Below, one piece after another: positions 32,311 to 57,038 of a stretch of DNA of 64,000 bases. The notes beneath the pieces are model-generated. The model ran no database searches, had not been told where the DNA came from, and saw only the letters and a list, made by a program, of their open reading frames with translations. A program made the position numbers and the translations under genes. How positions within the stretch are numbered: position 1 is the stretch's first letter; each line of letters opens with the position of its first letter. Origin of the DNA: Candidatus Levybacteria bacterium RIFCSPHIGHO2_01_FULL_40_16. Lineage in GTDB: Bacteria > Patescibacteriota > Microgenomatia > Levybacterales > UBA12049. The stretch spans positions 64,649-128,648 of the forward strand of contig MFNS01000001.1 of NCBI GenBank assembly GCA_001783805.1, read 5' to 3'.

Positions 32311-32844
32311 ATGAAGATTGGGATAGACATATCGCAAATTGCCTACGAGGGAACAGGGGTGGCAAACTTTCTTAGTAATTTAGTCTCGAATTTATTAAAA
32401 TTTGATAAAAAAAATGAATATATTCTATTTTACTCTTCTTTAAGAAGAAATTTTCAATTTTCAATTTTCAATTTTCAAGCAAATCGCAATTTTCAAGTCA
32501 AAAAATTCAAATTTCCACCCTTAATTCTGGATTTACTTTGGAATAGGCTGCATGTTTTGCCGATTGAATGGCTGATTGGAGACGTGGATGTTTTTGTTAC
32601 TTCTGATTGGACAGAACCGCCGACTATTAAGGCAAAAAAAGCAACTATTCTGTACGATCTGATTATTTATAAATATCCGAATGAGACAGATAAAAAAATT
32701 GTTGAAGTGCAAAAACGCAAACTAAAATGGGTTAAAAAAGAGTCGGAAATGATATTTTGCATTTCCGAGTCGGCGAAAAAAGATGCGGAGGAAATCTTGG
32801 GGATAGAAAATAAGCGATTAAAGGTTATTTATCCCGGAATTTGA
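32311..32844 (+). pseudogene. GT4 glycosyltransferase, N-terminal domain only (truncated duplicate)
   Basis: 177 aa ending at the YPGI interdomain motif with no C-terminal EX7E domain. The next gene starts 2 nt later with its own N-domain. Contains a TTTTCAA x4 heptamer array. Confidence 0.4.
32451..32496 (+). repeat. heptamer array TTTTCAA x4 (+1) inside GT4 N-domain gene
   Basis: Four perfect copies at 32451–32478 and a fifth at 32490–32496. Read in frame it encodes NFQFSIFNFQ. Confidence 0.8.
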
Positions 32845-32845
32845 T

Positions 32846-33988
32846 ATGACAATAGGAATTAATGGATATGAGGCGGTAATTCCCAGATTTGGTTATGATC
32901 CAAAAACCGGCTTGCCGCGAAGGGTTGGGAGCGGAGAGTATTGTTTTCAGCTTTTATTAAACTTAAATAAAATTGATAAACAGAATAGCTACATAATTTA
33001 CCTTCCGGAAAACCCAACATCGGATTTACCCAAAGAATCCTCAAGCTGGCATTACAAGATTATTAAACCGAGAAAAATGTGGACTTTGTTCGGATTATCT
33101 TTGGAATTTCTATTTAGACGTTCGAAACCCGACGTTTTCCTTTCCCCGACGCACTATTTGCCAATTATCGCGCCAAACCGGTCGGCAATCTCCATTTTGG
33201 ACGTGTCATATCTAAAATTTCCGGAGCTTTTTCAAAAATCTGATCTCAATCAACTGACGAAATGGACTAAATATTCCGCCCAAAAGGCCTCAAAGATTTT
33301 TACTATTAGCCAGGCTAGCAAAGATGATATAATTGAAAAATACGGGATTATGGCAAACAAAGTTGTGGTAACATATCCCGGCGTAAAACTCAAAACTCAA
33401 ATGTCAAAACTCAAAACTGAAGCTCAAAACTCAAATCTGCTTAAGGAAAAGTATGGGATTGAAGGGAAGTATATTTTGTTTGTGGGGACGCTACAGCCCC
33501 GTAAGAATATCGTCCGCTTAATAGAGGCTTTTTCTAAGCTAAACAAGCCAAATCTAGATTTGATTGTTGTGGGCAAGAAAGGCTGGAAATTTGAGGAAAT
33601 CCTTGCAGCGCCTAAAAAGTTCGGAATAGAAAATAAAGTTAAGTTTCTGGGTTCCGTTTCGGATGAAGATCTGCCAGCTTTTTATAAGAATGCAATTTGT
33701 TTTGTTTTGCCAAGTCTGTATGAGGGCTTCGGACTGCCGGTTTTGGAAGCAATGAAGTATGGATGTCCGGTTGTAACCAGCAATATCTCCTCTCTTCCCG
33801 AGGCGGGAGGGGACGCGGCTTTGTACATAGATCCGCTTAATGTTGCAGATATAAAGAAGAATCTGGAATTAATAATTAACAATCAGGAATTACGCAAAGA
33901 TTTGATAAGAAAAGGCTACGAGCAGGTCAAAAAATTTAGCTGGGAAAAAACCGCAAAAGAAACATTAAGGGTGCTGGAGGGCATTTAA
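32846..33988 (+). CDS. GT4-family glycosyltransferase
   Basis: N-domain plus C-domain with EGFGLPVLEAM (EX7E). Confidence 0.65.
   Translation: MTIGINGYEAVIPRFGYDPKTGLPRRVGSGEYCFQLLLNLNKIDKQNSYIIYLPENPTSDLPKESSSWHYKIIKPRKMWTLFGLSLEFLFRRSKPDVFLSPTHYLPIIAPNRSAISILDVSYLKFPELFQKSDLNQLTKWTKYSAQKASKIFTISQASKDDIIEKYGIMANKVVVTYPGVKLKTQMSKLKTEAQNSNLLKEKYGIEGKYILFVGTLQPRKNIVRLIEAFSKLNKPNLDLIVVGKKGWKFEEILAAPKKFGIENKVKFLGSVSDEDLPAFYKNAICFVLPSLYEGFGLPVLEAMKYGCPVVTSNISSLPEAGGDAALYIDPLNVADIKKNLELIINNQELRKDLIRKGYEQVKKFSWEKTAKETLRVLEGI
33389..33436 (+). repeat. degenerate heptamer array CTCAAAA/CTCAAAT x~7 in GT4 interdomain linker
   Basis: Units are ctcaaaa ctcaaat gtcaaaa ctcaaaa ctgaag ctcaaaa ctcaaat. 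Encodes KLKTQMSKLKTEAQNSN. Confidence 0.75.
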
Positions 33989-33989
33989 G

Positions 33990-34544: not shown

Positions 34545-34550
34545 TAACTA

Positions 34551-34578
34551 ATTGTTAAATTGCTATATTGTTAAATTG
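34551..34578 (+). promoter_or_regulatory. 12-nt direct repeat (ATTGTTAAATTG x2) with embedded extended -10 (TGcTATATT) upstream of the GT2 gene
   Basis: Copies at 34551–34562 and 34567–34578. Possible operator/promoter. Confidence 0.3.
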
Positions 34579-34583
34579 TTACG

Positions 34584-35474: not shown

Positions 35475-35478
35475 AATT

Positions 35479-38400
35479 ATGAAGATTTTAAAATGGATTG
35501 TTCACAATATATTATTCGTTTTTACTTTGTTTTTGTTGCTATTTATTCCTCTTTATCCAAAAATTCCTCTTTTGGATATACAGCATACGTGGGTATATGT
35601 CCGGGTCGAGGATTTTGTTGTTGTGCTGGCTATTGCCGCCTGGATTATTTTACTTTTGCTCAAGAGAGTTAGCCTAAAGACTCCATTGACGCTGCCGATA
35701 CTTTTATTTTGGGTTGTGGGTGGTTTAGCTACTTTACATGGAGTATTGTTTTTTTTCCCAACCTTGTCCAATGTTTTTTCAAATGTTGCCTTATTAAGTT
35801 TTCTAAGGGGAATAGAATACATGTTTCTGTTTTTTGTCGCTTATGCGGGTATTAAATCTGAAAAAAATATCTATCCAGTTGCGATTATTTTACCTATCAC
35901 ATTACTCTTGATTGTGGGGTATGGATTTGGTCAAAAATATCTAGGGTTTCCGGCCTTTTTGACGATGAATGAGGAAGCTGCTAAAGGGATTCCAATTCAG
36001 CTTTCCTCATTATCACGCATTCCCTCTACCTTTGCCGGACATTACGATTTGGCCGGATATTTAGTCTTGACAATCCCTATTGTTGCAAGTATGTTTTTTG
36101 GATTTAAAAATTGGCTTATAAAGATTTTTCTGTTTATCACCGGATTTTTGGGTGTGATTATTCTTTTTTTGACGGTATCCCGCATTTCATTTTTTGCCCT
36201 TTTATTATCACTACTTATGCTATTGATTTTTCAAAGAAAAAAATGGGTCATGGTAGCGCTTTTTATAATCATGATCGCTTTTTTTGGCTTTTTCCCAACA
36301 CTGCTGCAGCGTTTTAGCAGTATGGTTTCGGAAGTTGACGTATTGGTTAATGCTCAAACGGGTTCGTCAATCGGTCAAGCCAGAATTGTTCCGGCGGACT
36401 ATTTTAAGGATAAAGTTGTTCTCACGCAGGCATTTCCAAACGAGGATTTAAATCCTAATCTAGCCAGTTCCTCTGCTTTGATATATCCGTTTGAGAAAAT
36501 ACCCCCTCAAGCGGTTTTAGTATTTGAACCAAATGTTTCAAATGGGGAGAATTTACCGCAGGGAACAAGTTATATAAACCTTCCGCTGTCTCCGGTGACG
36601 GGCAAGGCACGTGAGTATTTTTTTGAAAAATCAACTAACCGGGCAGGAATAATTTCAACGGAAATACGCGTCTACCCCGGAGATTATGTTATAAAAAGGG
36701 CAAAAGCGTATGACATTTCTTTTACCACGAGATTTCAGGGTGAATGGCCCAATACTCTTACGGCTTTTAAAAGAAATATTTTCTTAGGCAGCGGTTACGG
36801 GTCGGTTAGTCTGGCAGTAGACAATAATTATTTGCGCATTTTGGGAGAAACTGGACTCCTTGGATTTATTTCTTTCTTCTCAATCTTTATAATTGCAGGA
36901 ATTTATATTGGAAAATTTTTACCAAAACTAAGATCACCTTTAGCCAAGAGTTTTATTCTAGGTTTTATAGCCGGCTCACTTGGGTTGGCAGTAAATGCGG
37001 TACTAATTGACGTTTTTGTTGCTTCGAAGATTGCTTTTATCTATTGGCTTTTGCTGGGAATAGCCTTGGGAATTTTAACCTCACATAAGGAAGAAATTAT
37101 CGATCTTTATGGGGAGATAAAAAAAATAGTCACCTCTTCCTACGCGATTATTATTTATCTTTTTATTACGATTTTTATAATGTTCTCTTCGATTTTAAAC
37201 TTCTATTTTGTAGGCGATGATTTTACTTGGTTTCGATGGGCTGCTAATTGCAGCAACTGTCTTTCTTTCTCGACAATAATTAACTACTTCACGAACGCAA
37301 GTGGGTTTTTCTATCGGCCGGGAACAAAAATCTTTTTTGATTTAATGTATTCAACATTTTGGTTTAATCAAGCCGTGTATCATCTGGCCTCAATTCTTCT
37401 TCATTTTACCGTCGCAACGTTGATATTTTTGCTCGCAAAAAAAATCTTGAAAAATCTTGCTATGTCTGCGGCTGTTGCATTTTTATTCCTAATTTTAAGC
37501 GGATATTTAGAGATTGTTTTATGGATTGCTGCAGTTGGTCATCTTTTCAATGCGGTCTTTGTTCTCTTAAGCTTGTTGATGTTTGTTCTTTGGAAGGAAA
37601 AGAAAAAAATGATCTACCTTATCGCTTCTTCCATTTTTACCTTTTTAAGTCTAATGTTTTACGAAATAGGGGTTGTTGCTCCATTCCTGATAATCCTTTA
37701 CAATTCGATTTTCGGGAGTCAGACGGGTAAAGATGCTATTTCCAAAAAAGCAGCGTATTTTATTGCATTTTTACCTCTTTTGCCTTATTCTTTATTACGT
37801 TTTTTTGCGCAAAGCCATTGGTTTAGCGGTGATTACAGCTACAATTTGATTAAGTTACCTTTCAACGTTGTAGGCAATCTTCTTGGATATTTTTCTCTTA
37901 CACTTTTTGGGCCCGCTTCTTTAAGCTTCTATGAGAATCTTAGAGTCTTATCAAGGAATAATGTGCTAATTACGCTACTGGGGTTATTAATTTTACTATT
38001 CTTGTTAGCTAAAACTTATCGGTCTGCGATTGTAAAGTTGGATACTCAAGAAAAGAAAATTTTGGCTTTCGGCTCATTGTTCTTTGCAATTTCCTTACTG
38101 CCGTTTTTGGGATTGGGGAATATAACTTCAAGATATAGCTACTTGTCTTCCTTTGGGCTCGTAATTCTTTTTGTATTTTTTCTTAAAAAAACTTATTATT
38201 ATTTGCTGAATAATAATAAATATATCGCTTCAACAATCATTATTTTGATAGTTATCATCTTTTCTTCTTTCCAGCTTTTTCAATTCCAAAGAATCCAGAC
38301 TGATTGGAAGGAAGCAGGGGAAAAAACAAAAAGCTTTCTCACGTCACTGGATTGGATATATGCGCATTATCCTGAGCAATACACCAAACAACTTTATTTC

Positions 38401-38643
38401 GTAAATGTGCCAATCCGTAACGGAGAAGCATGGGTGTTTCCTGTCGGACTAAATGATGCGGCCTGGCTTGTTTTTAGAGGAAAAGATGTTAAGATTTCTC
38501 AAGCTCAATCATCAGAACAGGCATTTGCTAATCTTGGGAGCGGTTATGGTAAAGTATTTGAATTTGATAGTAACGCAAAACTTATAGAGATGGTCAGAAA
38601 CCGTCAGGGAAAGATTGTTCCGGTCAGCCAGCAATATAAGTAA
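35479..38643 (+). CDS. 1054-aa fusion: O-antigen-ligase/PglL-like (Wzy_C) module + second GT-C-like polytopic module
   Basis: The N-half carries the Wzy_C signature (...FLGSGYGSVSLAVDNNYLRILGETGLLGF...). The C-half (about aa 540–1054) is another multi-TM region with a VGDDF acidic loop-1 motif and a C-terminal soluble domain. Confidence 0.45.
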   Translation: MKILKWIVHNILFVFTLFLLLFIPLYPKIPLLDIQHTWVYVRVEDFVVVLAIAAWIILLLLKRVSLKTPLTLPILLFWVVGGLATLHGVLFFFPTLSNVFSNVALLSFLRGIEYMFLFFVAYAGIKSEKNIYPVAIILPITLLLIVGYGFGQKYLGFPAFLTMNEEAAKGIPIQLSSLSRIPSTFAGHYDLAGYLVLTIPIVASMFFGFKNWLIKIFLFITGFLGVIILFLTVSRISFFALLLSLLMLLIFQRKKWVMVALFIIMIAFFGFFPTLLQRFSSMVSEVDVLVNAQTGSSIGQARIVPADYFKDKVVLTQAFPNEDLNPNLASSSALIYPFEKIPPQAVLVFEPNVSNGENLPQGTSYINLPLSPVTGKAREYFFEKSTNRAGIISTEIRVYPGDYVIKRAKAYDISFTTRFQGEWPNTLTAFKRNIFLGSGYGSVSLAVDNNYLRILGETGLLGFISFFSIFIIAGIYIGKFLPKLRSPLAKSFILGFIAGSLGLAVNAVLIDVFVASKIAFIYWLLLGIALGILTSHKEEIIDLYGEIKKIVTSSYAIIIYLFITIFIMFSSILNFYFVGDDFTWFRWAANCSNCLSFSTIINYFTNASGFFYRPGTKIFFDLMYSTFWFNQAVYHLASILLHFTVATLIFLLAKKILKNLAMSAAVAFLFLILSGYLEIVLWIAAVGHLFNAVFVLLSLLMFVLWKEKKKMIYLIASSIFTFLSLMFYEIGVVAPFLIILYNSIFGSQTGKDAISKKAAYFIAFLPLLPYSLLRFFAQSHWFSGDYSYNLIKLPFNVVGNLLGYFSLTLFGPASLSFYENLRVLSRNNVLITLLGLLILLFLLAKTYRSAIVKLDTQEKKILAFGSLFFAISLLPFLGLGNITSRYSYLSSFGLVILFVFFLKKTYYYLLNNNKYIASTIIILIVIIFSSFQLFQFQRIQTDWKEAGEKTKSFLTSLDWIYAHYPEQYTKQLYFVNVPIRNGEAWVFPVGLNDAAWLVFRGKDVKISQAQSSEQAFANLGSGYGKVFEFDSNAKLIEMVRNRQGKIVPVSQQYK

Positions 38644-40119: not shown

Positions 40120-41328
40120 ATGAACATTCTTTTGGTTTCATCATATCTGCCTTATCCTCTTTTTTCCGGAGGACACATCCGCTTGTATAATTTGATAAAA
40201 GAATTAAGTCATAAACATAAAATAACTTTGGTTTGTGAAAAAAGAGATTATCAAGGTGATGCCGAAATCTCGGAGCTTAAGAAATTCTGCAAAAAAGTTA
40301 TTTCAGTTCCCCGTAAAAAGCAATGGTCTTTGAAAAATATTACAAAAACCGGATTGTCAGCTTTACCCTTTTTAATAATAGGTCACACTAGTAGCGAAAT
40401 GCGGAAAGAAATTCAAAGAGAACTCAATGAAAATCAATTTGATTTAATTCACGCGGAGACTTCTTATGTAATGCAGAATATTCCTGAAACCAAAATTCCT
40501 ATTATTTTGGCAGAGCACAATGTGGAATATTTGGTCTACAAGCGTTTTGCAGATAAAGCACCATTGTTGCTGAGGCCGCTTTTGTATATGGATGTTTTAA
40601 AGCTTAAGCGTTGGGAAGAAGCAGTATGGAAAAAGGCCACGAAATTGATAGCGGTTTCAAAAATTGAAAAAGAAATTATGAACAAAGTTAGAAAAGATGT
40701 TGTTGTTGTTTCAAATGGAGTGGACATTGAAAAATTTACAATTAACGATTTACAATTAACAAGAGATGGAAGAGAAAAAAGAATTTTGTTTATTGGGGAA
40801 TTTAAATGGGTGCAAAATAGAGACGCAATCGAATGGATAATTAAAGAAATTTGGCCAAAGCTTATGGCCGAATTTATCCCGCCTATAACAGGCGGTGGGA
40901 TTAAATTATGGGTAGTTGGGAGGAATATTCCTGATTCAATTAGAGAATTGACAAGCGATAAAAATATTATATTTGATGACAAAGCACCAAAAGAAACGGA
41001 AGAGATATTCAGAAAATCAAATCTTCTCCTGGCTCCAATTCAGGTTGGCGGAGGAACGAGTTTCAAAATTTTGGAAGCAATGGCGAGCGGCGTTCCAGTT
41101 GTCACAACAGATCTAGGTAATGCAATAGGAGCAAAAGAAGATTTAGAAATAGTTATTGCAAATGAGGCGCACGATTTTATTGTAAAGATTAAAGAACTAT
41201 TCGAGAATAAGAAATTTTATGAAACAATTTCTCAAAATGCCAGAAAGTTAATTGAAGAAAAATTTAACTGGCAAAAAATTGCAGGAGATCTAGATTCCGT
41301 TTATGAGCTAGTCGTGCCTTATGCTTGA
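40120..41328 (+). CDS. GT4-family glycosyltransferase
   Basis: C-domain GGTSFKILEAMASGVPVV (EX7E). Confidence 0.65.
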   Translation: MNILLVSSYLPYPLFSGGHIRLYNLIKELSHKHKITLVCEKRDYQGDAEISELKKFCKKVISVPRKKQWSLKNITKTGLSALPFLIIGHTSSEMRKEIQRELNENQFDLIHAETSYVMQNIPETKIPIILAEHNVEYLVYKRFADKAPLLLRPLLYMDVLKLKRWEEAVWKKATKLIAVSKIEKEIMNKVRKDVVVVSNGVDIEKFTINDLQLTRDGREKRILFIGEFKWVQNRDAIEWIIKEIWPKLMAEFIPPITGGGIKLWVVGRNIPDSIRELTSDKNIIFDDKAPKETEEIFRKSNLLLAPIQVGGGTSFKILEAMASGVPVVTTDLGNAIGAKEDLEIVIANEAHDFIVKIKELFENKKFYETISQNARKLIEEKFNWQKIAGDLDSVYELVVPYA

Positions 41329-42199
41329 CCTTTCTATTATTATTGTCAGTTACAACGCAAAGGAGTTCTTGAGGAAATGCATTGCGTCAATCGTGAAGAA
41401 CATAAAGAACGTTTCATACGAAGTGATTGTTGTTGATAATAATTCAACAGACAGTTCTTCCGAAATGGTCAAAAAAGAGTTTCCCCAAATAAAGTTAATT
41501 GCGAATAAGAAAAATTTTGGGTTTTCAAAGGCGAATAATCAGGGAATTAAAATCTCAGAGGAAAGCAAATATATTTTATTTTTAAATCCGGATACGATTG
41601 TTAACGAACAGTCAGTTGAGGGAATGGTTAAATTTATGGATAGTCATTCAGATGCGGGGGCATCCACTTGCAAACTCGTAATGCCGAATGGAAGAATCGA
41701 TGATGCATCCCATCGCGGTTTTCCAACTCCTTGGAATTCTTTCTGCCATTTCTCAGGAATGTCCCGAATATTTCCAAAATCACAGATTTTCGCAGGATAT
41801 AACTTGGGATGGATGAACTTTGAGAAAACCCACGAAATAGATGTGCTGGCTGGAGCATTCATGTTGGTTAGAAGAGTTGCGGGTAAGGAAGCGAAATGGT
41901 GGGATGAAGATTATTTTTTCTACGGGGAAGATATAGATTTTTGTTATCAGCTAAAAGCAAAAGGCTGGAAAATTTATTATGTCCCGACCTTTTCTATAAT
42001 TCATTACAAAGGCGTGAGCGGCGGGATAAAATCTGTTTCTAAAGAAATCACCACAGCGAGTAAGGAAACAAAAGAAATGGTAACCAAATGGCGTTTTAAG
42101 GCAATGAGAATTTTTTACAATAAACATTACAGGCAAAAATATCCTTGGATTATTAATTTATTAGTAAATGTTGGAATTTCAATCAGAGAAAAAATATGA
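41321..42199 (+). CDS. GT2-family glycosyltransferase
   Basis: LSIIIVSYNAKEFL...VVDNNSTDSS. Confidence 0.6.
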   Translation: MLDLSIIIVSYNAKEFLRKCIASIVKNIKNVSYEVIVVDNNSTDSSSEMVKKEFPQIKLIANKKNFGFSKANNQGIKISEESKYILFLNPDTIVNEQSVEGMVKFMDSHSDAGASTCKLVMPNGRIDDASHRGFPTPWNSFCHFSGMSRIFPKSQIFAGYNLGWMNFEKTHEIDVLAGAFMLVRRVAGKEAKWWDEDYFFYGEDIDFCYQLKAKGWKIYYVPTFSIIHYKGVSGGIKSVSKEITTASKETKEMVTKWRFKAMRIFYNKHYRQKYPWIINLLVNVGISIREKI

Positions 42200-43338
42200 A
42201 AATAGGAATTGATACGAGGCTTTGGGGTGAAACTGGAGTTGGGAGATATATTCGCAATTTAGTGTCTGAACTTTCTAAAATAGACTTTAAGAATAGTTAT
42301 GTCTTGTTCGCCTTAAACAAAAACGAAAAAAACATTAAATCCGCAATTCGTAATTCTCAATTCGTAATTCGATTAACTGATATTAAGTGGCATACGCTTG
42401 AAGAACAATTAAAATTTCCTGCAATTTTGAATAAAGAAAATCTCGATCTAATACATTTTCCTTATTTTTCCGTTCCCGCTCTTTATAACAAACCATTTGT
42501 TTTTACGATTCACGATCTTATTATCGATCATTTTCCAACCGGACAGGCATCTGCTTTGCCATTTCCCATCTATAACCTTAAAAGGTTAGCATATAATCTT
42601 GTACTTAGTTACGCAGCAAAAAAAGCAAAAAAAATCATTACTGTTTCAAATGCGACGAAAGATGAAATTATAGATCATTTAAAAGTTAATCCCGAAAAAG
42701 TTGCAGTGACCTATGAGGGGGTGGATGATAGAATATCAAATATCAAATATCAAAAATCAAAAATTGATAGTGAATACTTTCTTTGTGTTGGGAATGCGTA
42801 TCCGCATAAAAATCTTGAGAGATTATTGGAAGCGTTTAAAATATTGGATAACGACACGAAACTTGTTTTGGTTGGAAAGGAAGATTATTTTTACAAAAGA
42901 TTAAGGAGTAAGGTGGCGGGAATGAGACTTTCCGACAAAACAATTCTCTTACAAAATGTAGCTGATGAAGAATTGTCAAGTTTGTACCAAAATGCAAAAG
43001 CTTTAATCTTGCCGTCTTTAATGGAAGGGTTTGGTCTGCCGGCTTTGGAGGCGATGGCGAATAAATGTTTGGTTTTGGCATCAGATATACCTTCATTGAG
43101 AGAAATATGTGGTAATGCCGCTTTGTATTTTAACCCATTAAGCATTGATGAATTGACAAAAAAGCTCAATATGGTTACCTCCCATACTACAGGGTATGGA
43201 AGGTTAGAAGAAATAAGAAAAAGAGGAATTGAGAGAGTCAAGCTTTTTTCCTGGCGCAAAATGGCAAGGAAGACATTGAAAATATATGAAAGTAGTTCTT
43301 CGGCAAGTCGAAGATACCCAGAGGGGCACTCAGAATAA
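42196..43338 (+). CDS. GT4-family glycosyltransferase
   Basis: EGFGLPALEAMANKCLVL. Contains two heptamer arrays (AATTCGT x4 and AATATCA x4–5). Confidence 0.65.
   Translation: MKIGIDTRLWGETGVGRYIRNLVSELSKIDFKNSYVLFALNKNEKNIKSAIRNSQFVIRLTDIKWHTLEEQLKFPAILNKENLDLIHFPYFSVPALYNKPFVFTIHDLIIDHFPTGQASALPFPIYNLKRLAYNLVLSYAAKKAKKIITVSNATKDEIIDHLKVNPEKVAVTYEGVDDRISNIKYQKSKIDSEYFLCVGNAYPHKNLERLLEAFKILDNDTKLVLVGKEDYFYKRLRSKVAGMRLSDKTILLQNVADEELSSLYQNAKALILPSLMEGFGLPALEAMANKCLVLASDIPSLREICGNAALYFNPLSIDELTKKLNMVTSHTTGYGRLEEIRKRGIERVKLFSWRKMARKTLKIYESSSSASRRYPEGHSE
42345..42372 (+). repeat. heptamer array AATTCGT-like x4 in GT4 N-domain
   Basis: Units are aattcgt aattctc aattcgt aattcga. Confidence 0.8.
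42732..42766 (+). repeat. heptamer array AATATCA x3 + AAAATCA + AAAATTG in GT4 interdomain linker
   Basis: Encodes ISNIKYQKSKI. Confidence 0.75.
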
Positions 43339-43365: not shown

Positions 43366-44535
43366 ATGAAAGTGGCATTAGTGTACGACCGATTGAATAA
43401 ATGGGGAGGGGCAGAAAGAGTAATGCTTGCTTTGCATAAGCTATTTCCTCTAGCTCCGCTTTACAGCTCAGTTTACGATAAAAAGAAAGCTCCTTGGGCC
43501 CTTCGTTTTAACTCAGGGCAAGCAAAAATTAAAACTTCTTTCCTTCAAAACTTTCCATTCGCCATGCGCCATGAGCTATATGCTGGCCTGATGCCTTTGG
43601 CGTTTGAGAGCTTTAATTTTGACGAGTTTGATTTAGTAATTTCCATAACTTCGGAAGCGGCAAAAGGAATTATTACTAAGCCCCAAACAAAACATATTTG
43701 TTATTGTTTAACGCCGACCCGTTATCTTTGGAGTGGATACAAAGACTATTTTAATAATCCGGTTCTTCGTTTTCTTTCATTTCCGGTTGTTTGGTATTTG
43801 AAGTTTTGGGATAAAATTGCAGCGCAAAGGCCGGACGCGTACATTGCGATTTCAAAAGAGGTTCAGATGAGGATTAAGAAGTATTATGGCAGAGAATCAA
43901 CCGTGGTGTACCCGCCAATCGAAATCTCAAATCTCAAATCTCAAATCTCAAATAAATCTCAAAATGCCAAATACAAAATACAAAATATCCCTTATTTCTT
44001 AATTGTTTCCCGTCTAGTTCCGTATAAGAAAATAGATCTTGCAATAAGAACTTTTAATAAATTAAAACTTCCCTTAAAAATAATTGGAACAGGCTCACAG
44101 ATGCAGGAATTAAAATCAATGGCGGAGCCGACAATTGAGCTTCTGGGTAACTTGACGGATAAAGAGCTGGTAAGGTATTATAGTGAGTGTTGCGCTTTGG
44201 TTTTTCCCGGTCCTGAAGATTTCGGTTTAACAATCTTAGAGGCGCAGGTTTTTGGCAAGCCGGTTATCGCTTTTAGAGGTGGAGGGGCTCTGGAAACAAT
44301 CATTGAAAAAAAGACAGGCGTTTTTTTTGAAGAACAAACAATCGAGAGCCTAACCAAAACAATAAAGCAATTTAACAAAATGAAATTTGATCCAAGAGAT
44401 TGCATCGAGCAAGCAAACAAATTTAATTTTAAAGTGTTTGAGGAGCGATTTATGCAAGAGATCCTTCGGCTGATGCCTCGTGCCGCCGGCATAGCCTTTG
44501 GCGACGCACGGCAGGATGACATTAATAAATTATGA
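43366..44535 (+). CDS. GT4-family glycosyltransferase
   Basis: MKVALVYDRL... and the C-domain EDFGLTILEAQVFGKPVI. A long AAATCTC/AAATACA heptamer array lies in the interdomain linker. The start was set at ATG 43366; the track starts at TTG 43351. Confidence 0.6.
   Translation: MKVALVYDRLNKWGGAERVMLALHKLFPLAPLYSSVYDKKKAPWALRFNSGQAKIKTSFLQNFPFAMRHELYAGLMPLAFESFNFDEFDLVISITSEAAKGIITKPQTKHICYCLTPTRYLWSGYKDYFNNPVLRFLSFPVVWYLKFWDKIAAQRPDAYIAISKEVQMRIKKYYGRESTVVYPPIEISNLKSQISNKSQNAKYKIQNIPYFLIVSRLVPYKKIDLAIRTFNKLKLPLKIIGTGSQMQELKSMAEPTIELLGNLTDKELVRYYSECCALVFPGPEDFGLTILEAQVFGKPVIAFRGGGALETIIEKKTGVFFEEQTIESLTKTIKQFNKMKFDPRDCIEQANKFNFKVFEERFMQEILRLMPRAAGIAFGDARQDDINKL
43922..43989 (+). repeat. heptamer array AAATCTC x4 followed by AAATACA x2–3 in GT4 interdomain linker
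   Basis: 68 nt of AAAT-N-N-C-type units. Encodes EISNLKSQISNKSQNAKYKIQNI. Confidence 0.8.
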
Positions 44536-52214: not shown

Positions 52215-52256
52215 TAACTTCTAACTTCTAACTGCTAATGACTAACTTTTAACAAC
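52215..52256. repeat. intergenic heptamer array TAACTTC-like x6 (stops in all three frames)
   Basis: The six units are taacttc taacttc taactgc taatgac taacttt taacaac. The array begins 4 nt after the stop of the upstream gene. Confidence 0.7.
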
Positions 52257-52307
52257 TACATCTTGCGTAATTCTACTTTGTAGAACACTATTGTGGTCAT
52301 TTCCCTA

Positions 52308-52336
52308 TTGACATAGTCAATAAATCGTACCAAAAT
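52308..52336 (+). promoter_or_regulatory. candidate sigma70-like Pmra promoter (TTGACA-N17-CAAAAT)
   Basis: TTGACA at 52308–52313 with a weak -10 at 52331–52336. The predicted TSS falls in the first GTGGG box. Confidence 0.3.
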
Positions 52337-52340
52337 GGAA

Positions 52341-52370
52341 TAAAGTGGGTCAAAGTGGGAAAAGGTGGGA
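52341..52370 (+). promoter_or_regulatory. MraZ operator: three GTGGG direct repeats at exact 10-bp spacing
   Basis: AAAGTGGGTC AAAGTGGGAA AAGGTGGGAC (GTGGG at 52345, 52355 and 52365). This matches the known MraZ binding-site architecture upstream of mraZ. Confidence 0.65.
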
Positions 52371-52488
52371 CGGACTGAGCATTGCGAAGGAGTCCGCTTG
52401 CGAGCAGCAGCGAGACAAGGGCGGCATGCTCAACAGAAAGGCAGGCCCGCCTAAAATATAAAAAATTTTAGCGGCGGGTAAATTAAAA
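52371..52488 (+). promoter_or_regulatory. GC-rich structured 5' leader of mraZ (candidate cis-regulatory RNA)
   Basis: About 100 nt of locally high GC in a 35%-GC genome. Stems: ggact..agtcc and tgagcat..atgctca. A 12-bp hairpin, cccgcctaaaat[ataaaaa]attttagcggcggg, ends 18 nt before the mraZ ATG. Confidence 0.35.
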
Positions 52489-52929
52489 ATGTTATTAGGG
52501 CAATATGAAGGCAAAGTCGGAGAGAAGAGCAGAATAGCTCTTCCTAAAAAATTAAGAGAAATTATCGGAGAAAAGTTAATAATAACTTTAGGATATGAAA
52601 ACTCGCTTATTCTCGTATCGGAAGCAGGTTGGAAGGCACTTCTTGAGGGAACAGAAGGTAGACCGTTTATTGAAAAACCAGCCCGGGAGATCCAGCGTTA
52701 CCTTCTTGGAGGAGCAACCAACATTTCGCTTGATTCTAAAGGAAGGTTTATTATACCTGACTACTTGCGACGCTTTGCAAAGATTAAAGGAAAAGTTGTA
52801 TTCCTAGGATTGTCGCGGTATGTTGAGCTGTGGGATATGGAACTTTGGGAAGAGTACCGCCAGAACCTTGAAAAAAACATTGATAAGATTTCGGAAAAAC
52901 TTATTAATAAGGAAGACACGAAAAAATGA
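52489..52929 (+). CDS. mraZ: transcriptional regulator MraZ
   Basis: Two SpoVT/AbrB-like halves (...KSRIALPKKLRE... and ...DSKGRFIIPDYLR...). 146 aa. Confidence 0.8.
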   Translation: MLLGQYEGKVGEKSRIALPKKLREIIGEKLIITLGYENSLILVSEAGWKALLEGTEGRPFIEKPAREIQRYLLGGATNISLDSKGRFIIPDYLRRFAKIKGKVVFLGLSRYVELWDMELWEEYRQNLEKNIDKISEKLINKEDTKK

Positions 52930-53798
52930 GTGACTTTCATGAGGGTGTACTTTTAAAAGAAACAATAGCCGGATTAAAAGTTGAGAAAAACAAAAAGTAC
53001 ATTGACGCAACATTGGGAGGGGGAGGACACACGGGTGAGATTTTGAAGCATGGGGGGATCGTTTTGGGCTTGGATGTTGATGAGGATGCGCTTGCGTACG
53101 TTGATAAAAATTTCAAATTTCAAATTTCAAATTTCAAATTGACGCTGGCGAGAGGAAATTTTAGAGATATAGATAGAATTGCACTTTTAAATAATTTTGC
53201 TCCGCCGGCTGGCGGAGTGGCCGGAATAATTTTTGACCTTGGTGTTTCCGGCTATCAGATAGATAATCCCGCGCGCGGATTCAGTTTCCAGTATGAGGGC
53301 CCGCTGGATATGAGAATGGACCAGGATTTGGGAGTAAGGGCCCTAGATTTAATCAAGATTCTGACGAAAGGAGAGCTCTATGAAATATTTACTAGATTTG
53401 GTGAAGAGAACCATGCTTGGGAGATTGCTAACGCTATTGTTAGGGCCCGTAGCGTAAAAGCAATTGCAACAACCAGGGATCTGGCGAAAATAATTTTTCC
53501 AATAGCCGGGCAAAGTAAAAGAGTCTTTCAAGCACTTAGAATCGCAGTGAACGACGAGCTAGATGCAATTACGCAAGCCCTACCGAAAGCTTTAAAGCTT
53601 TTAGAGAAAAATGGAAGATTATGCGTAATTTCGTTTCATTCTCTGGAAGACAGAATCATCAAAAGAAAATTTTTGGAATTTGAAGAGAAAAATTTGGGAA
53701 AAATTATTACGGAAAAACCAATTGTTACGACAAACGAAGAAATCGAAAAGAATAAAAGAGCAAGAAGTGCAAAATTAAGAATATTTGAAAAAACTTAA
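52926..53798 (+). CDS. rsmH: 16S rRNA (cytosine1402-N4)-methyltransferase RsmH
   Basis: HEGVLLKETI...DATLGGGGHT...DLGVSGYQID...FHSLEDR. Contains an AAATTTC x4 heptamer array in a variable region. Confidence 0.8.
   Translation: MSDFHEGVLLKETIAGLKVEKNKKYIDATLGGGGHTGEILKHGGIVLGLDVDEDALAYVDKNFKFQISNFKLTLARGNFRDIDRIALLNNFAPPAGGVAGIIFDLGVSGYQIDNPARGFSFQYEGPLDMRMDQDLGVRALDLIKILTKGELYEIFTRFGEENHAWEIANAIVRARSVKAIATTRDLAKIIFPIAGQSKRVFQALRIAVNDELDAITQALPKALKLLEKNGRLCVISFHSLEDRIIKRKFLEFEEKNLGKIITEKPIVTTNEEIEKNKRARSAKLRIFEKT
53108..53140 (+). repeat. heptamer array AAATTTC x4.7 inside rsmH
   Basis: 33 nt, in frame (NFKFQISNFKL). Replaces a non-conserved surface segment. Confidence 0.8.
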
Positions 53799-53818
53799 CC
53801 CCGTGTGACGGGGCAAAT

Positions 53819-54103
53819 ATGAAAAAACCTTATCTTATAATTACAATTTTATTGGGATTAGTCATAGTTCTATCTATAACTAGAGCATTCCTGCATAATA
53901 TGCTGTCTACGTCCGGAATTTTCGTAAGCCGTGCCGAACAGGAAATAAATTTCTATAAAACGCAGAATGCTATTCTAGCAGAAGAGCTCTTGACAGAGTC
54001 CTCCTTGACGAATACCATTGAGAAAGCAAGGGAGTCAGGATTTACCGACGAAAACACCCTAATGGTTATTAAAACATCAAGACCTTTGGCAGTCAGACCA
54101 TGA
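53819..54103 (+). CDS. ftsL: cell division protein FtsL-like
   Basis: 94 aa, single TM plus a coiled-coil. Sits between rsmH and ftsI. Confidence 0.5.
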   Translation: MKKPYLIITILLGLVIVLSITRAFLHNMLSTSGIFVSRAEQEINFYKTQNAILAEELLTESSLTNTIEKARESGFTDENTLMVIKTSRPLAVRP

Positions 54104-55779
54104 AGTGGCGCTATTCTTTTGTCTTTTCAATCCTCGTCCTATTATTTGTTCTAATTATTGGACGTTTGTTTTATTGGCAGGTGGTAAAAGCAGAAATGCT
54201 TTCCGAACTGGCCATATCACAATATAGCGGTTCGATAAAAATCATGCCCAAAAGGGGTACAATCAAAACATCCGATGGTTTTCCAATAGCAACCAATAAA
54301 GTTTCCTATTCTCTGTTTGTTAATCCGACAGAAATTAAAGACAAAAACCAAACAATTCTGACGCTTTCCTCTCTTCTGGATGTCACTAAAGCTTCTATCA
54401 GCGCTTCATTATTGCCGGATAGATTTTGGGTTCCCATAAGATCAGGAATTGAGGCAAAAGAAAAAGAAAGAATAGAAGAAATGCAGATTCCGGGAGTCGG
54501 ATTTGAAGAGCGTTATACGCGTTTTTATCCGGAAGCATCTGTTGCGGCGCAGCTTCTGGGATTTGTCGGTAAAAATGATGCGGGAGAGAATAAGGGCTAT
54601 GTGGGACTTGAAGGATTTTATGACAGGTTTTTAATGGGCAAAGAAGGATATGTGGTTCAGTTTAGCGATGCCTTGGGACGGCCGATTATACCCAGAAAAA
54701 CCTCAATGCTTGGCGGTTCGGACGGAGGCAATCTTAGGCTGAGTTTGGATAGGTCAATACAATTTCTGGCGGAACAAAAACTTAAAGCAGGCATAGAAAG
54801 ATACGGCGCGGCCGGCGGAATGATCGGAATAATGGATCCACAAACCGGAGATATTCTGGCAATGGCTTCCAGTCCATCCTTTTCACAAGCTCAATATTGG
54901 AAATATGACGAAAGTTTGTACAAAAACCCTTTTATTACCAATACATATGAACCTGGCTCTACTCTCAAACCAATTATAATGGCCTCGGCCTTAGATGCGG
55001 GAATCATTACGCCTCAAACAATCTGCAATATTTGCGCCGGTCCGGTGTCGGTGAGCGGATACGAATTGCATACTTGGAATGATAAGTATTACAAAGATAG
55101 CAATATGATCGAAGTTATTCAGCATTCGGATAATATCGGCATGGTTTTCGTTGCGTTGAAGCTGGGATCGGACAAGATGATATCGTATCTCACGAAATTT
55201 GGCATGGGCAAATCAACCGGCATTGACTTGCAAGGTGAAACTGTACCGTCTCTGAAGCCAAGAAGTGCCTGGTATGACGTTGATTTGGCGACTACCGGAT
55301 TTGGCCAGGGAATTTCCGTAACTCCGATTGAACTTTTGACTGCTTTTTCCGCTTTGGCAAATGAGGGAAAAATTATGAAGCCCCATGTGGTAACCGCATT
55401 TGAAAATTCAAACGGAGAAGTGTTCAAAGTGCCTGCCAAGGTTGCCAGCACGCCTATCTCTGCAAAAACCGCCAAGATTATGGCGGAAATTCTGGTAAAT
55501 GCCGTTGAAAAAGGAGAGGCGCAATGGACCAAACTTAAAGGCTACCGGATTGCAGGGAAAACCGGCACCGCATCGATTCCAGTAAAAGGACATTATGATC
55601 CCAGTAGTACAATTGCCTCATTTATTGGTTTTGCTCCTGTTGATAAGCCCAAATTTGTCATGCTGGTGATTTTGGAAAAACCAACCAGTTCTATTTATGC
55701 CGCAGAAACAGCGGCTCCGGTATTTTTTGATGTAGCGGGCAATTTATTAAATTACTACGGAATTCCCCCCTCAGAGTGA
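54100..55779 (+). CDS. ftsI: penicillin-binding protein (FtsI/PBP2-type transpeptidase)
   Basis: N-terminal TM, SxxK (GSTLKP), SDN (HSDNIG) and KTGT (AGKTGTA) motifs. Confidence 0.8.
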   Translation: MKWRYSFVFSILVLLFVLIIGRLFYWQVVKAEMLSELAISQYSGSIKIMPKRGTIKTSDGFPIATNKVSYSLFVNPTEIKDKNQTILTLSSLLDVTKASISASLLPDRFWVPIRSGIEAKEKERIEEMQIPGVGFEERYTRFYPEASVAAQLLGFVGKNDAGENKGYVGLEGFYDRFLMGKEGYVVQFSDALGRPIIPRKTSMLGGSDGGNLRLSLDRSIQFLAEQKLKAGIERYGAAGGMIGIMDPQTGDILAMASSPSFSQAQYWKYDESLYKNPFITNTYEPGSTLKPIIMASALDAGIITPQTICNICAGPVSVSGYELHTWNDKYYKDSNMIEVIQHSDNIGMVFVALKLGSDKMISYLTKFGMGKSTGIDLQGETVPSLKPRSAWYDVDLATTGFGQGISVTPIELLTAFSALANEGKIMKPHVVTAFENSNGEVFKVPAKVASTPISAKTAKIMAEILVNAVEKGEAQWTKLKGYRIAGKTGTASIPVKGHYDPSSTIASFIGFAPVDKPKFVMLVILEKPTSSIYAAETAAPVFFDVAGNLLNYYGIPPSE

Positions 55780-55793
55780 TATAATATAAAACT

Positions 55794-57029
55794 ATGTGGC
55801 AGAGAACAAAGAATCTTTATCATCTCGGTATTGCGATCATTTCCAATGCCTGGTTTAAATTTCCTTCAAGAAAGTTGACCATAATTGGCGTAACCGGAAC
55901 GGATGGAAAAACGACGACAACCAGCCTTATCTATCACGTTTTACATACTGCCGGTTTGAATACTTCAATGGTGAGCTCAATCGGGGCAGTAATCAACGGA
56001 AAAAACTTTGATGTAGGCTTTCACGTCACCACCCCCTCCTCTTTTGCCCTGCAGAGATTCTTACAAAAAGCTTCCAAGGAGAGCCCTTCCTCTGGCGCCA
56101 CCCCTCGAAATTTCTTAGTTCTGGAAACTACATCCCACGCTTTGGATCAGTACCGGGTTTTTGGGATTAAATTCGCTGTCGGAGTATTAACGAATGTTAC
56201 CCATGAACACTTGGACTATCACAAAACCTATGAAAATTACGTTAAAACAAAGGCAAAGTTGCTCAAGATGTCCAGAATTGCAGTTGTGAATAAAGATGAC
56301 CAGTCATATCGCTTGATAAATTCGAAATTCGAAATTCGAAATTCGAAATTAGTAACCTATGGGTTGGGAAAAGATTCGGATATAAATCCGAAAACATTTC
56401 CTTTTAAAACAAATTTAATCGGTGATTACAACAAATATAATATTTTGGCCGCAATAAGTGCTTGCAGAGCGCTTGGAGTAAAGGATGAGGCAATAAGGAA
56501 GGGAATTGAAAGTTTTGTGGCGCCACTTGGCAGGGGAGACATTGTTTATCCAACGGCTGCCTTAGGGCAAGCTGATTTTACGGTGATGATTGATTTTGCT
56601 CACACTCCGAATGCAATTGATCAAGTTTTAAAATCGGTTAGGCCGATTGTTGAAGGCAAAATTATTCATGTTTTCGGTTCTGCCGGAGCAAGAGATGTGA
56701 CAAAAAGACCGTTAATGGGAGAAATGTCCTCCAAATACGCGGACATAATTATTCTGACAGCCGAAGATCCAAGAAAAGAAAATGTTGAAAAGATTATGAA
56801 CGGGATAGCCGGAGGAATTCAGAATTCGGAATTAAGGATTAAGAATGGAACATTGTTTAAAATTCCAGACCGGAAAGAGGCAATTAAAACCGGAATTAAA
56901 CTGGCTAAGAAAGGTGATTTTGTCATTATTACCGGAAAATCGCACGAAAGATCTATGAATTACGGACACGGAGAGGTCGCATGGGACGAATATGGAGTTG
57001 TTAGAAGAGTATTAAGGATTAATGATTAA
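55794..57029 (+). CDS. murE: UDP-MurNAc-L-Ala-D-Glu:diamino-acid ligase MurE (lacks canonical N-terminal domain)
   Basis: IIGVTGTDGKTTTTS P-loop, VVNKDD, EDPR and ITGKSHE. Only 411 aa. Contains an AAATTCG x4 array. Confidence 0.7.
   Translation: MWQRTKNLYHLGIAIISNAWFKFPSRKLTIIGVTGTDGKTTTTSLIYHVLHTAGLNTSMVSSIGAVINGKNFDVGFHVTTPSSFALQRFLQKASKESPSSGATPRNFLVLETTSHALDQYRVFGIKFAVGVLTNVTHEHLDYHKTYENYVKTKAKLLKMSRIAVVNKDDQSYRLINSKFEIRNSKLVTYGLGKDSDINPKTFPFKTNLIGDYNKYNILAAISACRALGVKDEAIRKGIESFVAPLGRGDIVYPTAALGQADFTVMIDFAHTPNAIDQVLKSVRPIVEGKIIHVFGSAGARDVTKRPLMGEMSSKYADIIILTAEDPRKENVEKIMNGIAGGIQNSELRIKNGTLFKIPDRKEAIKTGIKLAKKGDFVIITGKSHERSMNYGHGEVAWDEYGVVRRVLRIND
56318..56350 (+). repeat. heptamer array AAATTCG x4.7 inside murE
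   Basis: 33 nt, in frame (NSKFEIRNSKL). Lies between the NxDD motif and the ...TYG strand. Confidence 0.8.
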
Positions 57030-57038
57030 GGATTAATG
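57011..57038 (+). repeat. perfect 2 x 14-nt (4 x ATTAA[G/T]G heptamer) tandem repeat spanning the murE stop and murC RBS/start
   Basis: attaaggattaatg attaaggattaatg. Copy 1 encodes the murE C-terminus (LRIND) and copy 2 supplies the murE TAA stop and the murC ATG. Confidence 0.8.

What the first reader, a model, noticed from the sequence alone, without database searches (positions are those of the whole stretch)
32451..57038. Genome-specific family of about 28–33 nt heptanucleotide tandem arrays (4–5 x AAAT-N-N-C-like 7-mers) in frame inside unrelated genes and in intergenic DNA
There are at least nine arrays, each with about four copies of a 7-mer drawn from a related set (AAATTCG, AAATTTC, AAATCTC, AATTTTC, AATATCA, CTCAAAA, TAACTTC, ATTAAGG). 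Seven sit inside CDSs (five in GT4 genes, one each in rsmH and murE) and two are non-coding. The coding ones occupy variable, non-conserved segments and keep the frame (33 nt is 11 codons). Their presence in essential genes (murE, rsmH) argues against simple on/off phase variation. A seven-nucleotide periodicity recurring at a fixed copy number across unrelated loci is not a generic low-complexity effect. It points to a specific slippage or templated-insertion process, or to a dispersed micro-element.
Basis: seen in the sequence. Interest (0 to 1): 0.72.

Follow-up and report, generated by a model that had tools for sequence, protein, structure and literature searches.

The report
Seven-base microsatellites inside Levybacteria genes
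The window, from a groundwater Candidatus Levybacteria genome, carries about fourteen short 7-base tandem repeats, mostly inside genes; they behave like ordinary slippage-prone microsatellites, are still gaining and losing whole units, and in some assemblies break the cell-wall gene murE.

Summary
Period 7 is the only enriched tandem period: 8 strict arrays against 0 in shuffles and 0 for periods 6 and 8-15. TRF lists 14 arrays between 23598 and 58405.

The family is not genome-specific. Unseeded loci from related CPR bacteria hold 44 period-7 arrays against at most 4 for any other period. Matching arrays occur in many phyla.

The best reading is heptanucleotide microsatellites changing by strand slippage, a class already reported as over-represented in prokaryotes. 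The closest coding example is E. coli NeuO.

The "AAAT..C" look follows from an AT-rich sense strand that must avoid stop codons in all three phases. The "about 4 copies" is mostly detection threshold plus a steep length distribution. In-frame change needs 3 units (7 aa).

Arrays sit at the same permissive sites in orthologues and paralogues, with different units.

Otherwise identical assemblies carry -7, -14 and -21 nt alleles. The -7 allele splits murE.

There are no conserved flanks, so a dispersed micro-element is not supported.

Verdict: a new member of a known kind, of moderate interest.

The parts
23598..23630 (+). CTCTTAT x4.7 (84% matches) inside ORF 22911-24515 (534 aa, no Pfam hit). 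It encodes a hydrophobic LLSLISY-type peptide.
32449..32478 (+). AATTTTC x4.3, perfect. It lies in the 177-aa ORF that has only the GT4 N-domain (32311-32844), at aa 47-56 (peptide NFQFSIF), in the variable loop after the conserved 'Y.L.F' stretch near the N-terminus.
33385..33439 (+). AAAACTC x7.4 (77% matches; also scored as a 20-mer). It lies in the GT4 gene 32846-33988 at the linker between the two GT-B domains, aa 180-198.
40733..40762 (+). AATTAAC-like x4.3, really a 14-mer (ATTTACAATTAACG) x1.9. It lies in the GT4 gene 40120-41328 at the same interdomain linker.
42338..42371 (+). AATTCGC/AATTCGT x4.9 (14-mer x1.9). It lies in the GT4 gene 42196-43338 at aa 48-59, the same N-domain loop as the array at 32449.
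42732..42761 (+). AATATCA x4.3 (95% matches). It lies in the GT4 gene 42196-43338 at the interdomain linker, aa 179-189 (ISNIKYQKSKI).
43922..43953 (+). AAATCTC x4.6, perfect. It lies in the GT4 gene 43351/43366-44535 at the interdomain linker.
43960..43987 (+). CAAAATA x4.0 (85% matches), 6 nt downstream of the previous array in the same GT4 linker.
52215..52258 (+). TAACTTC x5.6 (75% matches). It is intergenic, about 50-95 nt upstream of the promoter-like site of mraZ. The unit contains TAA. This is the only array with 5-6 copies.
53108..53140 (+). AAATTTC x4.7, perfect. It lies in rsmH (52926-53798) at aa 61-72 (NFKFQISNFKL). Orthologues carry arrays with other units at the same site.
56318..56350 (+). 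AAATTCG x4.7, perfect. It lies in murE (55794-57029) at aa 175-186 (INSKFEIRNSKL). It is polymorphic: -1 unit splits murE into 183 aa + 221 aa, and -3 units gives an in-frame 404-aa protein.
56815..56846 (+). GAATTCA/GAATTAA x4.6 (80% matches). It lies in murE at aa 341-351 (GIQNSELRIKN). In orthologues this site varies in length from 13 to 36 aa.
57011..57040 (+). ATTAAGG x4.3 (14-mer ATTAAGGATTAATG x2.1). It encodes the MurE C-terminus and its TAA stop, an AAGGA Shine-Dalgarno-like motif, and the ATG of the next Mur ligase gene. It is polymorphic: a -14 nt allele removes the murE stop and gives a 447-aa read-through product.
58373..58405 (+). AAATTCA-like x4.7 (69% matches, decayed). It encodes the C-terminus (NSELKMQKSKL) of the Mur ligase gene 57036-58415, annotated as MurC.

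Best explanation
These are heptanucleotide simple-sequence repeats (short VNTRs). They gain and lose whole 7-nt units by strand misalignment, most likely replication slippage. The arrays seen inside genes are the survivors of three filters.

1. Stop-codon filter. Seven is coprime to three, so every cyclic trinucleotide of the unit gets read as a codon. Only units with no TAA, TAG or TGA on the sense strand can persist. In an AT-rich genome this leaves an A-run, then a T-run, then a buffering C or CG.

2. Frame filter. Only net changes of 3 units (21 nt, 7 aa) keep the reading frame.

3. Protein filter. The encoded K/N/S/Q + F/I/L peptide must be tolerated. Arrays therefore pile up at the same permissive sites: the GT-B interdomain linker, an N-domain loop of GT4 enzymes, the helix-loop-strand after the NxDD motif of MurE, a variable segment of RsmH, and C-termini.

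The arrays are still active and are repeatedly homogenised. They also throw off frameshift alleles.

Shown here: the period specificity, the unit-step alleles, the stop-free sense units, the site convergence, the 7-aa length steps and the concerted change between orthologues.

Inferred: that the process is replication slippage, why 7 nt is favoured, and that the arrays have no selected function.
For: Period specificity:
- Period 7 alone is enriched in the window.
- It is also enriched in 834 kb of unseeded related CPR loci: 44 arrays against at most 4 for any period from 4-15.
- It is enriched in 850 kb from 120 other genomes: 253 against at most 14, though each locus holds at least one seeded array.

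Unit-step alleles in DNA otherwise identical to the window:
- -7 nt in murE.
- -14 nt at the murE/murC junction.
- The predicted -21 nt product is present in the protein collection.

Stop-codon filter:
- All nine clean coding units are stop-free on the sense strand, and 7 of 9 carry stops on the antisense strand.
- The non-coding array and the gene-boundary array have units that contain TAA.
- In related loci plus the window, 43 of 52 coding units are stop-free in sense against 18 of 52 in antisense, and 39 of 52 are A-rich on the sense strand.

Frame filter:
- MurE site-1 lengths cluster at 15, 21-22, 28-29 and 35 aa.

Turnover:
- The window and L140 murE genes are 76% identical in DNA, and 56% at third codon positions. 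Yet each array is internally perfect and they differ by the same G/A change in every unit.

Site convergence:
- Arrays with different units occupy the same site in MurE and RsmH orthologues.
- They occupy the same alignment columns in four GT4 paralogues that are 20-30% identical.

Literature:
- NeuO is a coding AAGACTC VNTR that is ON only when the copy number is divisible by 3 (PMC13001214).
Against: - No process was observed directly. Unequal recombination or repair synthesis would give the same alleles.
- Only two of fourteen arrays showed variants. None was seen for the GT4 or rsmH arrays among roughly 17-27 contigs each.
- Birth of a 4-copy array inside an essential gene requires frameshifted intermediates or a 21-nt jump. 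This is not explained.
- The 7-aa quantisation is clear at MurE site 1 but not at MurE site 2 or the RsmH site.
- A frameshifted murE as the assembled allele in three assemblies is hard to reconcile with a purely deleterious by-product.
- The preference for 7 over 5, 6 or 8 nt remains unexplained.
Confidence: 0.8

Rival explanations
1. The arrays are selected contingency loci. On this view they are phase-variation switches that turn surface-glycan GT4 genes, and even murE, reversibly ON and OFF, as the AAGACTC repeat does in E. coli neuO.
For: - Seven arrays lie in GT4 genes of a polysaccharide cluster. This is the classic gene class for SSR phase variation.
- A murE OFF allele (-1 unit) is the assembled allele in ERZ27254767, ERZ27254793 and ERZ27254754.
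- A -14 nt allele changes the MurE C-terminus and the overlap with murC.
- NeuO is a precedent (PMC13001214).
Against: - The tracts are short (4-7 units), whereas neuO carries 3-53 repeats and H. influenzae loci carry 13-38 (PMC13001214, PMC2651432).
- No ON/OFF variants were seen for any GT4 array.
- Arrays sit mid-protein in housekeeping genes (rsmH, murE, murC), at the same sites in many orthologues.
- Arrays also occur as in-frame peptide segments that are modelled with high confidence.
- Reversibility was not observed.
Confidence: 0.1
2. Selection acts on the peptide. A heptad-like motif such as NSKFKIQNSKL would be functionally useful, and the DNA periodicity would be a by-product.
For: - The peptide is shared by MurE orthologues at 64-77% identity.
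- A similar peptide ends MurC.
- AlphaFold models the MurE segments with pLDDT about 88-93, as the end of a helix, a loop and the start of a strand.
Against: - Five arrays are perfect at the DNA level, with no synonymous differences between units.
- Different peptides occupy the same site in different lineages.
- Some orthologues, and the -3-unit allele, lack the segment altogether.
- The same periodicity occurs in non-coding DNA.
Confidence: 0.05
3. A dispersed micro-element or a templated insertion process places ready-made arrays of about 30 nt at target sites. A mobile element footprint or a reverse-transcriptase-like repeat addition would be examples.
For: - Array lengths in the window are similar (28-33 nt for most).
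- Arrays recur at the same protein sites.
Against: - Units differ from array to array, and I saw no shared flanks, terminal repeats or target duplications around the arrays.
- Alleles differ by single and double units, not by whole arrays only.
- Non-coding arrays in other genomes range from 28 to over 100 nt.
- The arrays show no significant RNA structure and there is no Rfam hit in the window.
Confidence: 0.03
4. The arrays are a chance, compositional or assembly artefact.
For: The genome is AT-rich (31-43% GC), and the data are metagenome assemblies.
Against: - Dinucleotide shuffles give 0 arrays.
- Other periods give 0.
- Identical arrays appear in many independent assemblies from JGI, ENA and NCBI.
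- Orthologues carry arrays at the same sites.
Confidence: 0.01

Closest known systems
Long-unit simple sequence repeats of prokaryotes, in which heptanucleotide units are over-represented (2007 survey, as summarised in PMC4679880 and PMC4692102)
   Same: Tandem 7-nt units are enriched over other unit lengths. Slippage is the proposed cause. The phenomenon is scattered across phyla, as my pattern scan also found.
   Different: The survey noted that coding SSRs are mostly multiples of 3. Here most arrays are inside genes, including housekeeping genes, are short (4-7 units), and persist at orthologous sites across a CPR clade.
E. coli K1 neuO 5' coding VNTR (AAGACTC)n (PMC13001214)
   Same: It is a heptanucleotide repeat inside a CDS of a surface-glycan-modifying enzyme. 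It is translated in all three phases into a 7-aa repeat. It is in frame only in steps of 3 units and changes by strand slippage. The unit AAGACTC resembles AAAACTC at 33385.
   Different: neuO has one long tract (3-53 units) at the 5' end of one phage-borne gene, with demonstrated ON/OFF switching. Here there are many short tracts mid-protein in chromosomal genes, and switching is not demonstrated.
Haemophilus influenzae heptanucleotide SSRs: (TGAAAGA)n upstream of hmw1A/hmw2A, (AATTTTG)14 inside hmw1A, and AACAACC tracts upstream of, or in some strains within, TonB-dependent receptor genes (PMC2651432)
   Same: AT-rich 7-nt units occur, sometimes within ORFs, and cause frameshifts when the copy number changes.
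   Different: These are few loci with long tracts in contingency genes of a pathogen.
Cyanobacterial tandem heptanucleotide repeats (the family I know as STRR), GGGGA(T/C)T in Nostoc, and Xanthomonas GGGAATC repeats (PMC4692102)
   Same: Genome-wide excess of tandem heptamers, with length variation between relatives.
   Different: These are mainly intergenic, often G-rich, each with a few dominant units, and arrays of up to dozens of copies.
TAACTGA direct repeats of marine Beggiatoaceae, cyanobacteria and some Bacteroidetes (PMC4679880)
   Same: Heptamer direct repeats occur in sets of 2-6 copies. The paper also reasons that stop codons restrict orientation in coding DNA.
   Different: There is one favoured unit, mostly in 5' untranslated regions. 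It contains stops in the forward orientation, and a regulatory role has been proposed.

Membership tests
Heptanucleotide simple sequence repeat (slippage-type microsatellite/VNTR) | Head-to-tail copies of one short unit, more frequent than composition predicts | tested here: met
   There are 8 arrays against 0 in 30 shuffles, and period 7 is the only enriched period.
Heptanucleotide simple sequence repeat (slippage-type microsatellite/VNTR) | Copy number differs by whole units between otherwise near-identical genomes | tested here: met
   Alleles of -7, -14 and -21 nt occur at arrays 56318 and 57011. The DNA-level cases have 0 mismatches elsewhere. No variants were seen at the other twelve arrays.
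Heptanucleotide simple sequence repeat (slippage-type microsatellite/VNTR) | No element-like structure (no conserved flanks, termini or target duplication) | tested here: met
   By inspection, the flanks of all arrays differ. No formal flank alignment was run.
Heptanucleotide simple sequence repeat (slippage-type microsatellite/VNTR) | Generated by replication slippage | not testable with these tools
   This is inferred from the unit-step alleles. It needs mutation-accumulation or reporter assays.
Phase-variable contingency locus (NeuO-like) | SSR inside a CDS such that unit changes switch the reading frame | tested here: met
   The -1-unit allele truncates MurE at 183 aa.
Phase-variable contingency locus (NeuO-like) | High-frequency, reversible ON/OFF switching within a population | not testable with these tools
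   The OFF allele is found in three assemblies. Frequencies and reversion need read-level data.
Phase-variable contingency locus (NeuO-like) | Long tract giving a high switching rate (typically well over 6 units) | tested here: not met
   The arrays have 4.0-7.4 units.
Phase-variable contingency locus (NeuO-like) | Restricted to dispensable surface or host-interaction genes | tested here: not met
   Arrays also occur in rsmH, murE and murC.
Cyanobacterial tandem heptanucleotide repeats (STRR) / Xanthomonas GGGAATC repeats | A few characteristic, often G-rich units, mostly intergenic, in those lineages | tested here: not met
   The units here are A/T-rich and diverse, 12 of 14 arrays lie wholly within ORFs, and the organism is Candidatus Levybacteria.
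TAACTGA repeat system of Beggiatoaceae | A single favoured unit, TAACTGA, upstream of start codons | tested here: not met
   No array in the window has a TAACTGA unit, and there are at least 12 different units.
MITE-like or other dispersed micro-element | Shared sequence with defined ends, inverted repeats or target-site duplication | tested here: not met
   Units and flanks differ by inspection, and the arrays show no significant fold.

The most novel reading that the evidence does not exclude
In Levybacteria and their relatives, a heptamer-specific slippage process may be active enough to act as a standing engine. It would keep re-seeding and homogenising 7-aa modules at permissive protein sites. 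It would also generate null alleles of essential genes such as murE that reach consensus frequency in natural populations. That would imply either tolerance through multiple genome copies per cell, or genuine phase-variable cell-wall synthesis in a CPR bacterium. This clade, together with its sample series from one site, could then serve as a natural system for the unanswered question of why bacterial slippage favours 7 nt.
Probability: 0.12. Interest if true: 0.7.

Novelty: new member of a known kind. Interest (0 to 1): 0.4.

Why it matters
- It documents heptanucleotide microsatellites in a candidate-phyla-radiation lineage. I found no report of this in the searched literature.

- It shows how such repeats shape proteins. 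They act as quantised 7-aa indels at a handful of permissive sites, they are kept internally perfect by turnover, and they are filtered by stop-codon avoidance.

- For annotation, these tracts explain split or extended genes in metagenome-assembled CPR genomes: murE as 183 aa + 221 aa, and MurE as a 447-aa read-through. Such cases should not be read as pseudogenes of a lineage.

- If the murE OFF allele is truly abundant in cells, that would bear on ploidy or cell-wall biology in CPR bacteria.

Tried and rejected
- RNA structure of seven arrays: z-scores ran from -1.8 to +0.8, which is nothing convincing.
- Rfam at gathering threshold: 0 hits. tRNA scan: 0 genes.
- Conserved flanks or termini around arrays: none seen by inspection.
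- Exact look-ups of predicted alleles: murE +1 and +3, and rsmH -1, +1, -3 and +3, are not in the collection.
- The 90% clusters of rsmH, five GT4s, murC, murA and two other proteins showed no unit-step variants. P0133, P0136 and P0144 are truncated or odd contig-end products that I could not tie to 7-nt steps.
- DNA for the -3-unit allele (P0123) is not on record.
- The 2007 SSR survey itself is not held and is cited only through two papers that summarise it.
- A strict rule of 'copy number = 1 mod 3' was considered and dropped. About 4 copies is also the mode in non-coding arrays, and 5-copy arrays occur in long open frames in other phyla.
- The 7-aa quantisation was not clear at MurE site 2 or at the RsmH site.
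It therefore shows breadth, not relative abundance by phylum.
Full report
**Observation.** Tandem Repeats Finder lists period-7 arrays at 23598, 32449, 33385, 40733, 42338, 42732, 43922, 43960, 52215, 53108, 56318, 56815, 57011 and 58373. Exact runs of at least three copies exist for period 7 only: five of them, against none for periods 4-6 and 8-15. With a mismatch-tolerant criterion the window has 8 period-7 arrays. Thirty dinucleotide-preserving shuffles gave 0, and periods 6 and 8-15 gave 0. The same test on 50 kb of the E. coli dcw region finds none. The array at 34550 has period 8 and is not part of the family.

**Source and gene context.** The MurE protein of the window is identical to a protein named in NCBI as coming from Candidatus Levybacteria bacterium RIFCSPLOWO2_01_FULL_39, a CPR/Microgenomates lineage. 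The same DNA occurs at 100% identity in many independent assemblies. Pfam assigns the host genes as follows:
- five GT4-type glycosyltransferase ORFs in a polysaccharide cluster;
- the dcw genes mraZ, rsmH, a PBP, murE, a second Mur ligase annotated as MurC, and murA.

Twelve arrays lie wholly within ORFs. One spans the murE stop and the next start codon. One is intergenic, upstream of mraZ.

**Not genome-specific.** MurE orthologues at 64-77% identity carry the translated repeat at the same position. An example is LNSKFKIQNSKI, which is (AAATTCA)n read through all three phases. They also carry a second, length-variable repeat site.

I fetched 80 loci around MurE relatives from metagenomes. 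These were not selected for repeats. They contain 44 period-7 arrays against at most 4 for any period from 4 to 15. Density among low-GC loci depends on relatedness:
- 8.0, 9.4 and 5.4 per 100 kb for MurE identity of at least 54%, 48-53% and 44-47%;
- 0.9 per 100 kb at 43% identity or below.

The window itself has 12.5 per 100 kb. The intensity therefore looks like a clade property.

The hits spread over cyanobacteria, Acidobacteriota, Bacteroidota, Verrucomicrobiota, Chloroflexota, Patescibacteria and others. Those 850 kb hold 253 period-7 arrays against at most 14 for other periods.

This matches what two papers report from a 2007 survey. [quoted passage not shown]

**Why the units look related.** Seven is coprime to three, so an array is read in all three phases and every cyclic trinucleotide of the unit becomes a codon.
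- All nine clean coding units (AATTTTC, AAAACTC, AATATCA, AAATCTC, CAAAATA, AAATTTC, AAATTCG, AAATTCA, CTCTTAT) are free of stops on the sense strand. Seven of the nine would carry stops on the other strand.
- The intergenic unit TAACTTC and the gene-boundary unit ATTAAGG both contain TAA.
- Across the related loci plus the window, 43 of 52 coding units are stop-free in sense against 18 of 52 in antisense. Thirty-nine of 52 are A-rich on the sense strand.
- In an AT-rich sequence, the step from a T-run back to an A-run needs a C or CG to avoid TAA or TGA. That is the 'AAAT..C' shape.
- Several observed units rank 11th to 33rd by composition among the stop-free necklaces.
- T-rich stop-free units are equally likely by composition but would encode hydrophobic peptides. 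The only one present lies in a T-rich ORF without a Pfam hit. This last step is inference.

**Why about four copies.** About 4 copies is the mode in non-coding arrays too: 6 of 12 in CPR loci and 68 of 144 in other phyla. Most of the apparent constancy is therefore the detection threshold plus a steep length distribution.

Inside genes there is also a frame constraint. In CPR loci, coding arrays show 25 with 4.x copies, 1 with 5.x, none with 6.x and 2 with 7.x. In the window, the only 5.6-copy array is the intergenic one and the only longer coding array has 7.4 copies. At the protein level, the MurE segment D169-G190 has lengths clustering at 15, 21-22, 28-29 and 35 residues among 90 orthologues, which are steps of 7 aa or 3 units. 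This quantisation is not clear at MurE site 2 or at the RsmH site.

**The arrays are active.**
- One 526-kb contig (ERZ27254767) is identical to the window over 20.9 kb except for the loss of one AAATTCG unit. This splits murE into ORFs of 183 aa and 221 aa.
- Exact look-up of predicted products found both fragments. It also found the predicted in-frame -3-unit protein of 404 aa, from SRR3990172.
- The -1 allele is present in three assemblies (ERZ27254767, ERZ27254793, ERZ27254754) with no other difference from the window. Two Logan contigs from other runs end inside the array at window position 56344.
- A 276-kb contig (ERZ27254752) has lost one 14-nt double unit of the array at 57011. This removes the murE stop and yields a 447-aa read-through product, again with no other change in 5.3 kb.
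- No unit-step variants were seen for the other arrays.

**Turnover.** The window and L140 murE genes are 76% identical in DNA, and only 56% at third codon positions. Yet both arrays are internally perfect and differ by the same G/A change in every unit. That requires homogenisation by repeated contraction and expansion, or recent independent births from related seeds.

**Site convergence.** The MurE site after the NxDD motif carries arrays with many different units in different lineages: AAATTCG, AAATTCA, AAAACTC-like, AAAGTCA, AATTCGT and CAAATGT. The RsmH site does the same with AAATTTC, AAATTCG and AAAGCYA.

In four GT4 paralogues that are 20-30% identical, the arrays align in the same columns, between the V.Y.G motif and the start of the C-terminal domain. 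This is the GT-B interdomain linker. Two more arrays share one N-domain loop.

An AlphaFold model of MurE (mean pLDDT 88) places site 1 at the end of helix 171-178, a loop, and the start of strand 185-189. It places site 2 around a short helix at 345-350.

I read this as a filter. Arrays arise widely but persist only where a 7-14 aa polar or amphipathic segment is tolerated. A sequence-context hotspot is not excluded.

**Rivals.**
- An adaptive phase-variation role is possible for the GT4 genes and is hinted at by the murE OFF allele. However, the tracts are short, no GT4 variants were found, and housekeeping genes are involved.
- Peptide-level selection is contradicted by the DNA-level perfection of the arrays, by different peptides occupying one site, and by alleles and orthologues that lack the segment.
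- A dispersed element or templated insertion is contradicted by unit diversity, the lack of shared flanks, single-unit alleles, and the absence of structure or Rfam hits.
- Chance and assembly artefact are excluded.

**Comparison with known systems.** In mechanism, the closest coding precedent is E. coli K1 neuO, whose 5' (AAGACTC)n tract is in frame only when the copy number is divisible by 3 (PMC13001214). H. influenzae has heptanucleotide tracts upstream of and inside hmw1A and in a TonB-dependent receptor gene (PMC2651432). Cyanobacterial and Xanthomonas heptamer repeats, and the TAACTGA repeats of Beggiatoaceae, are mostly intergenic with a few dominant units (PMC4692102, PMC4679880). I found no paper linking CPR bacteria with such repeats.

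**Verdict.** This is a real, well-supported instance of a known class of repeat in a lineage where it had not been described. It has instructive features: the stop-codon filter, the 7-aa steps, turnover at orthologous sites, and live alleles that break or extend murE. The preference for 7 nt and the status of the murE OFF allele remain open.

Noticed in passing
window 52308-52370: Upstream of mraZ there is a promoter-like TTGACA-17-CAAAAT site. It is followed directly by four boxes at 10-nt spacing (AAAATGGA, AAAGTGGG, AAAGTGGG, AAGGTGGG). From my own knowledge of MraZ binding to direct repeats, this looks like an MraZ operator.
   Followed up: partly
window 32311-32844: This 177-aa ORF holds only a GT4 N-terminal domain. 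It ends (…VIYPGI, then stop) exactly at the alignment position where its full-length paralogues carry their linker arrays. The next GT4 gene starts 2 nt later. It may be the remnant of a truncated GT4 gene.
   Followed up: partly
window 34550-34581: There is a period-8 array, AATTGTTA x4 (83% matches), in the 39-nt gap between the hexapeptide-transferase gene and a GT2 gene. It is the only clear array in this region whose period is not 7.
   Followed up: no
window 55794-57029 (MurE) and alignment A2: MurE here, and all 89 aligned relatives, have no Pfam hit to the N-terminal Mur ligase domain (PF01225), whereas the neighbouring MurC has one.
   Followed up: no
window 56080-56110 (MurE aa 96-105); relatives P0073, P0090, P0102, P0105, P0116 and others: A third MurE site is disordered in the model (pLDDT below 50 at residues 99-103). 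In relatives it holds in-frame insertions that lengthen the segment by about 10-60 aa, with recurring peptides such as '…RVRHDN…' and '…HSGEE.RR.QNL…ARMTMRK'. This suggests a different, more GC-rich repeated element inserted in frame.
   Followed up: no
L221 and L224 (window 53291-56344 and 55070-56344): Two Logan contigs from different sequencing runs both terminate at window position 56344, inside the murE array. This is what an assembly-graph branch caused by copy-number heterogeneity would produce.
   Followed up: partly
proteins P0125 and P0127 (JGI 4,038-bp contig): Another assembly has murE split near residue 205 by a deletion that is not a multiple of the heptamer unit. It could be an assembly error or a separate lesion.
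   Followed up: no
window 14627-29765: There is a run of large ORFs (531-754 aa), T-rich on the sense strand, with no Pfam hit or only weak PMT_2 matches. I would guess they are membrane glycosyltransferases. Only one period-7 array (23598) lies in this 15-kb stretch.
   Followed up: no
window 35479-38643: This 1054-aa ORF has only a sub-threshold Wzy_C (O-antigen ligase) match. It sits in the middle of the glycosyltransferase cluster.
   Followed up: no
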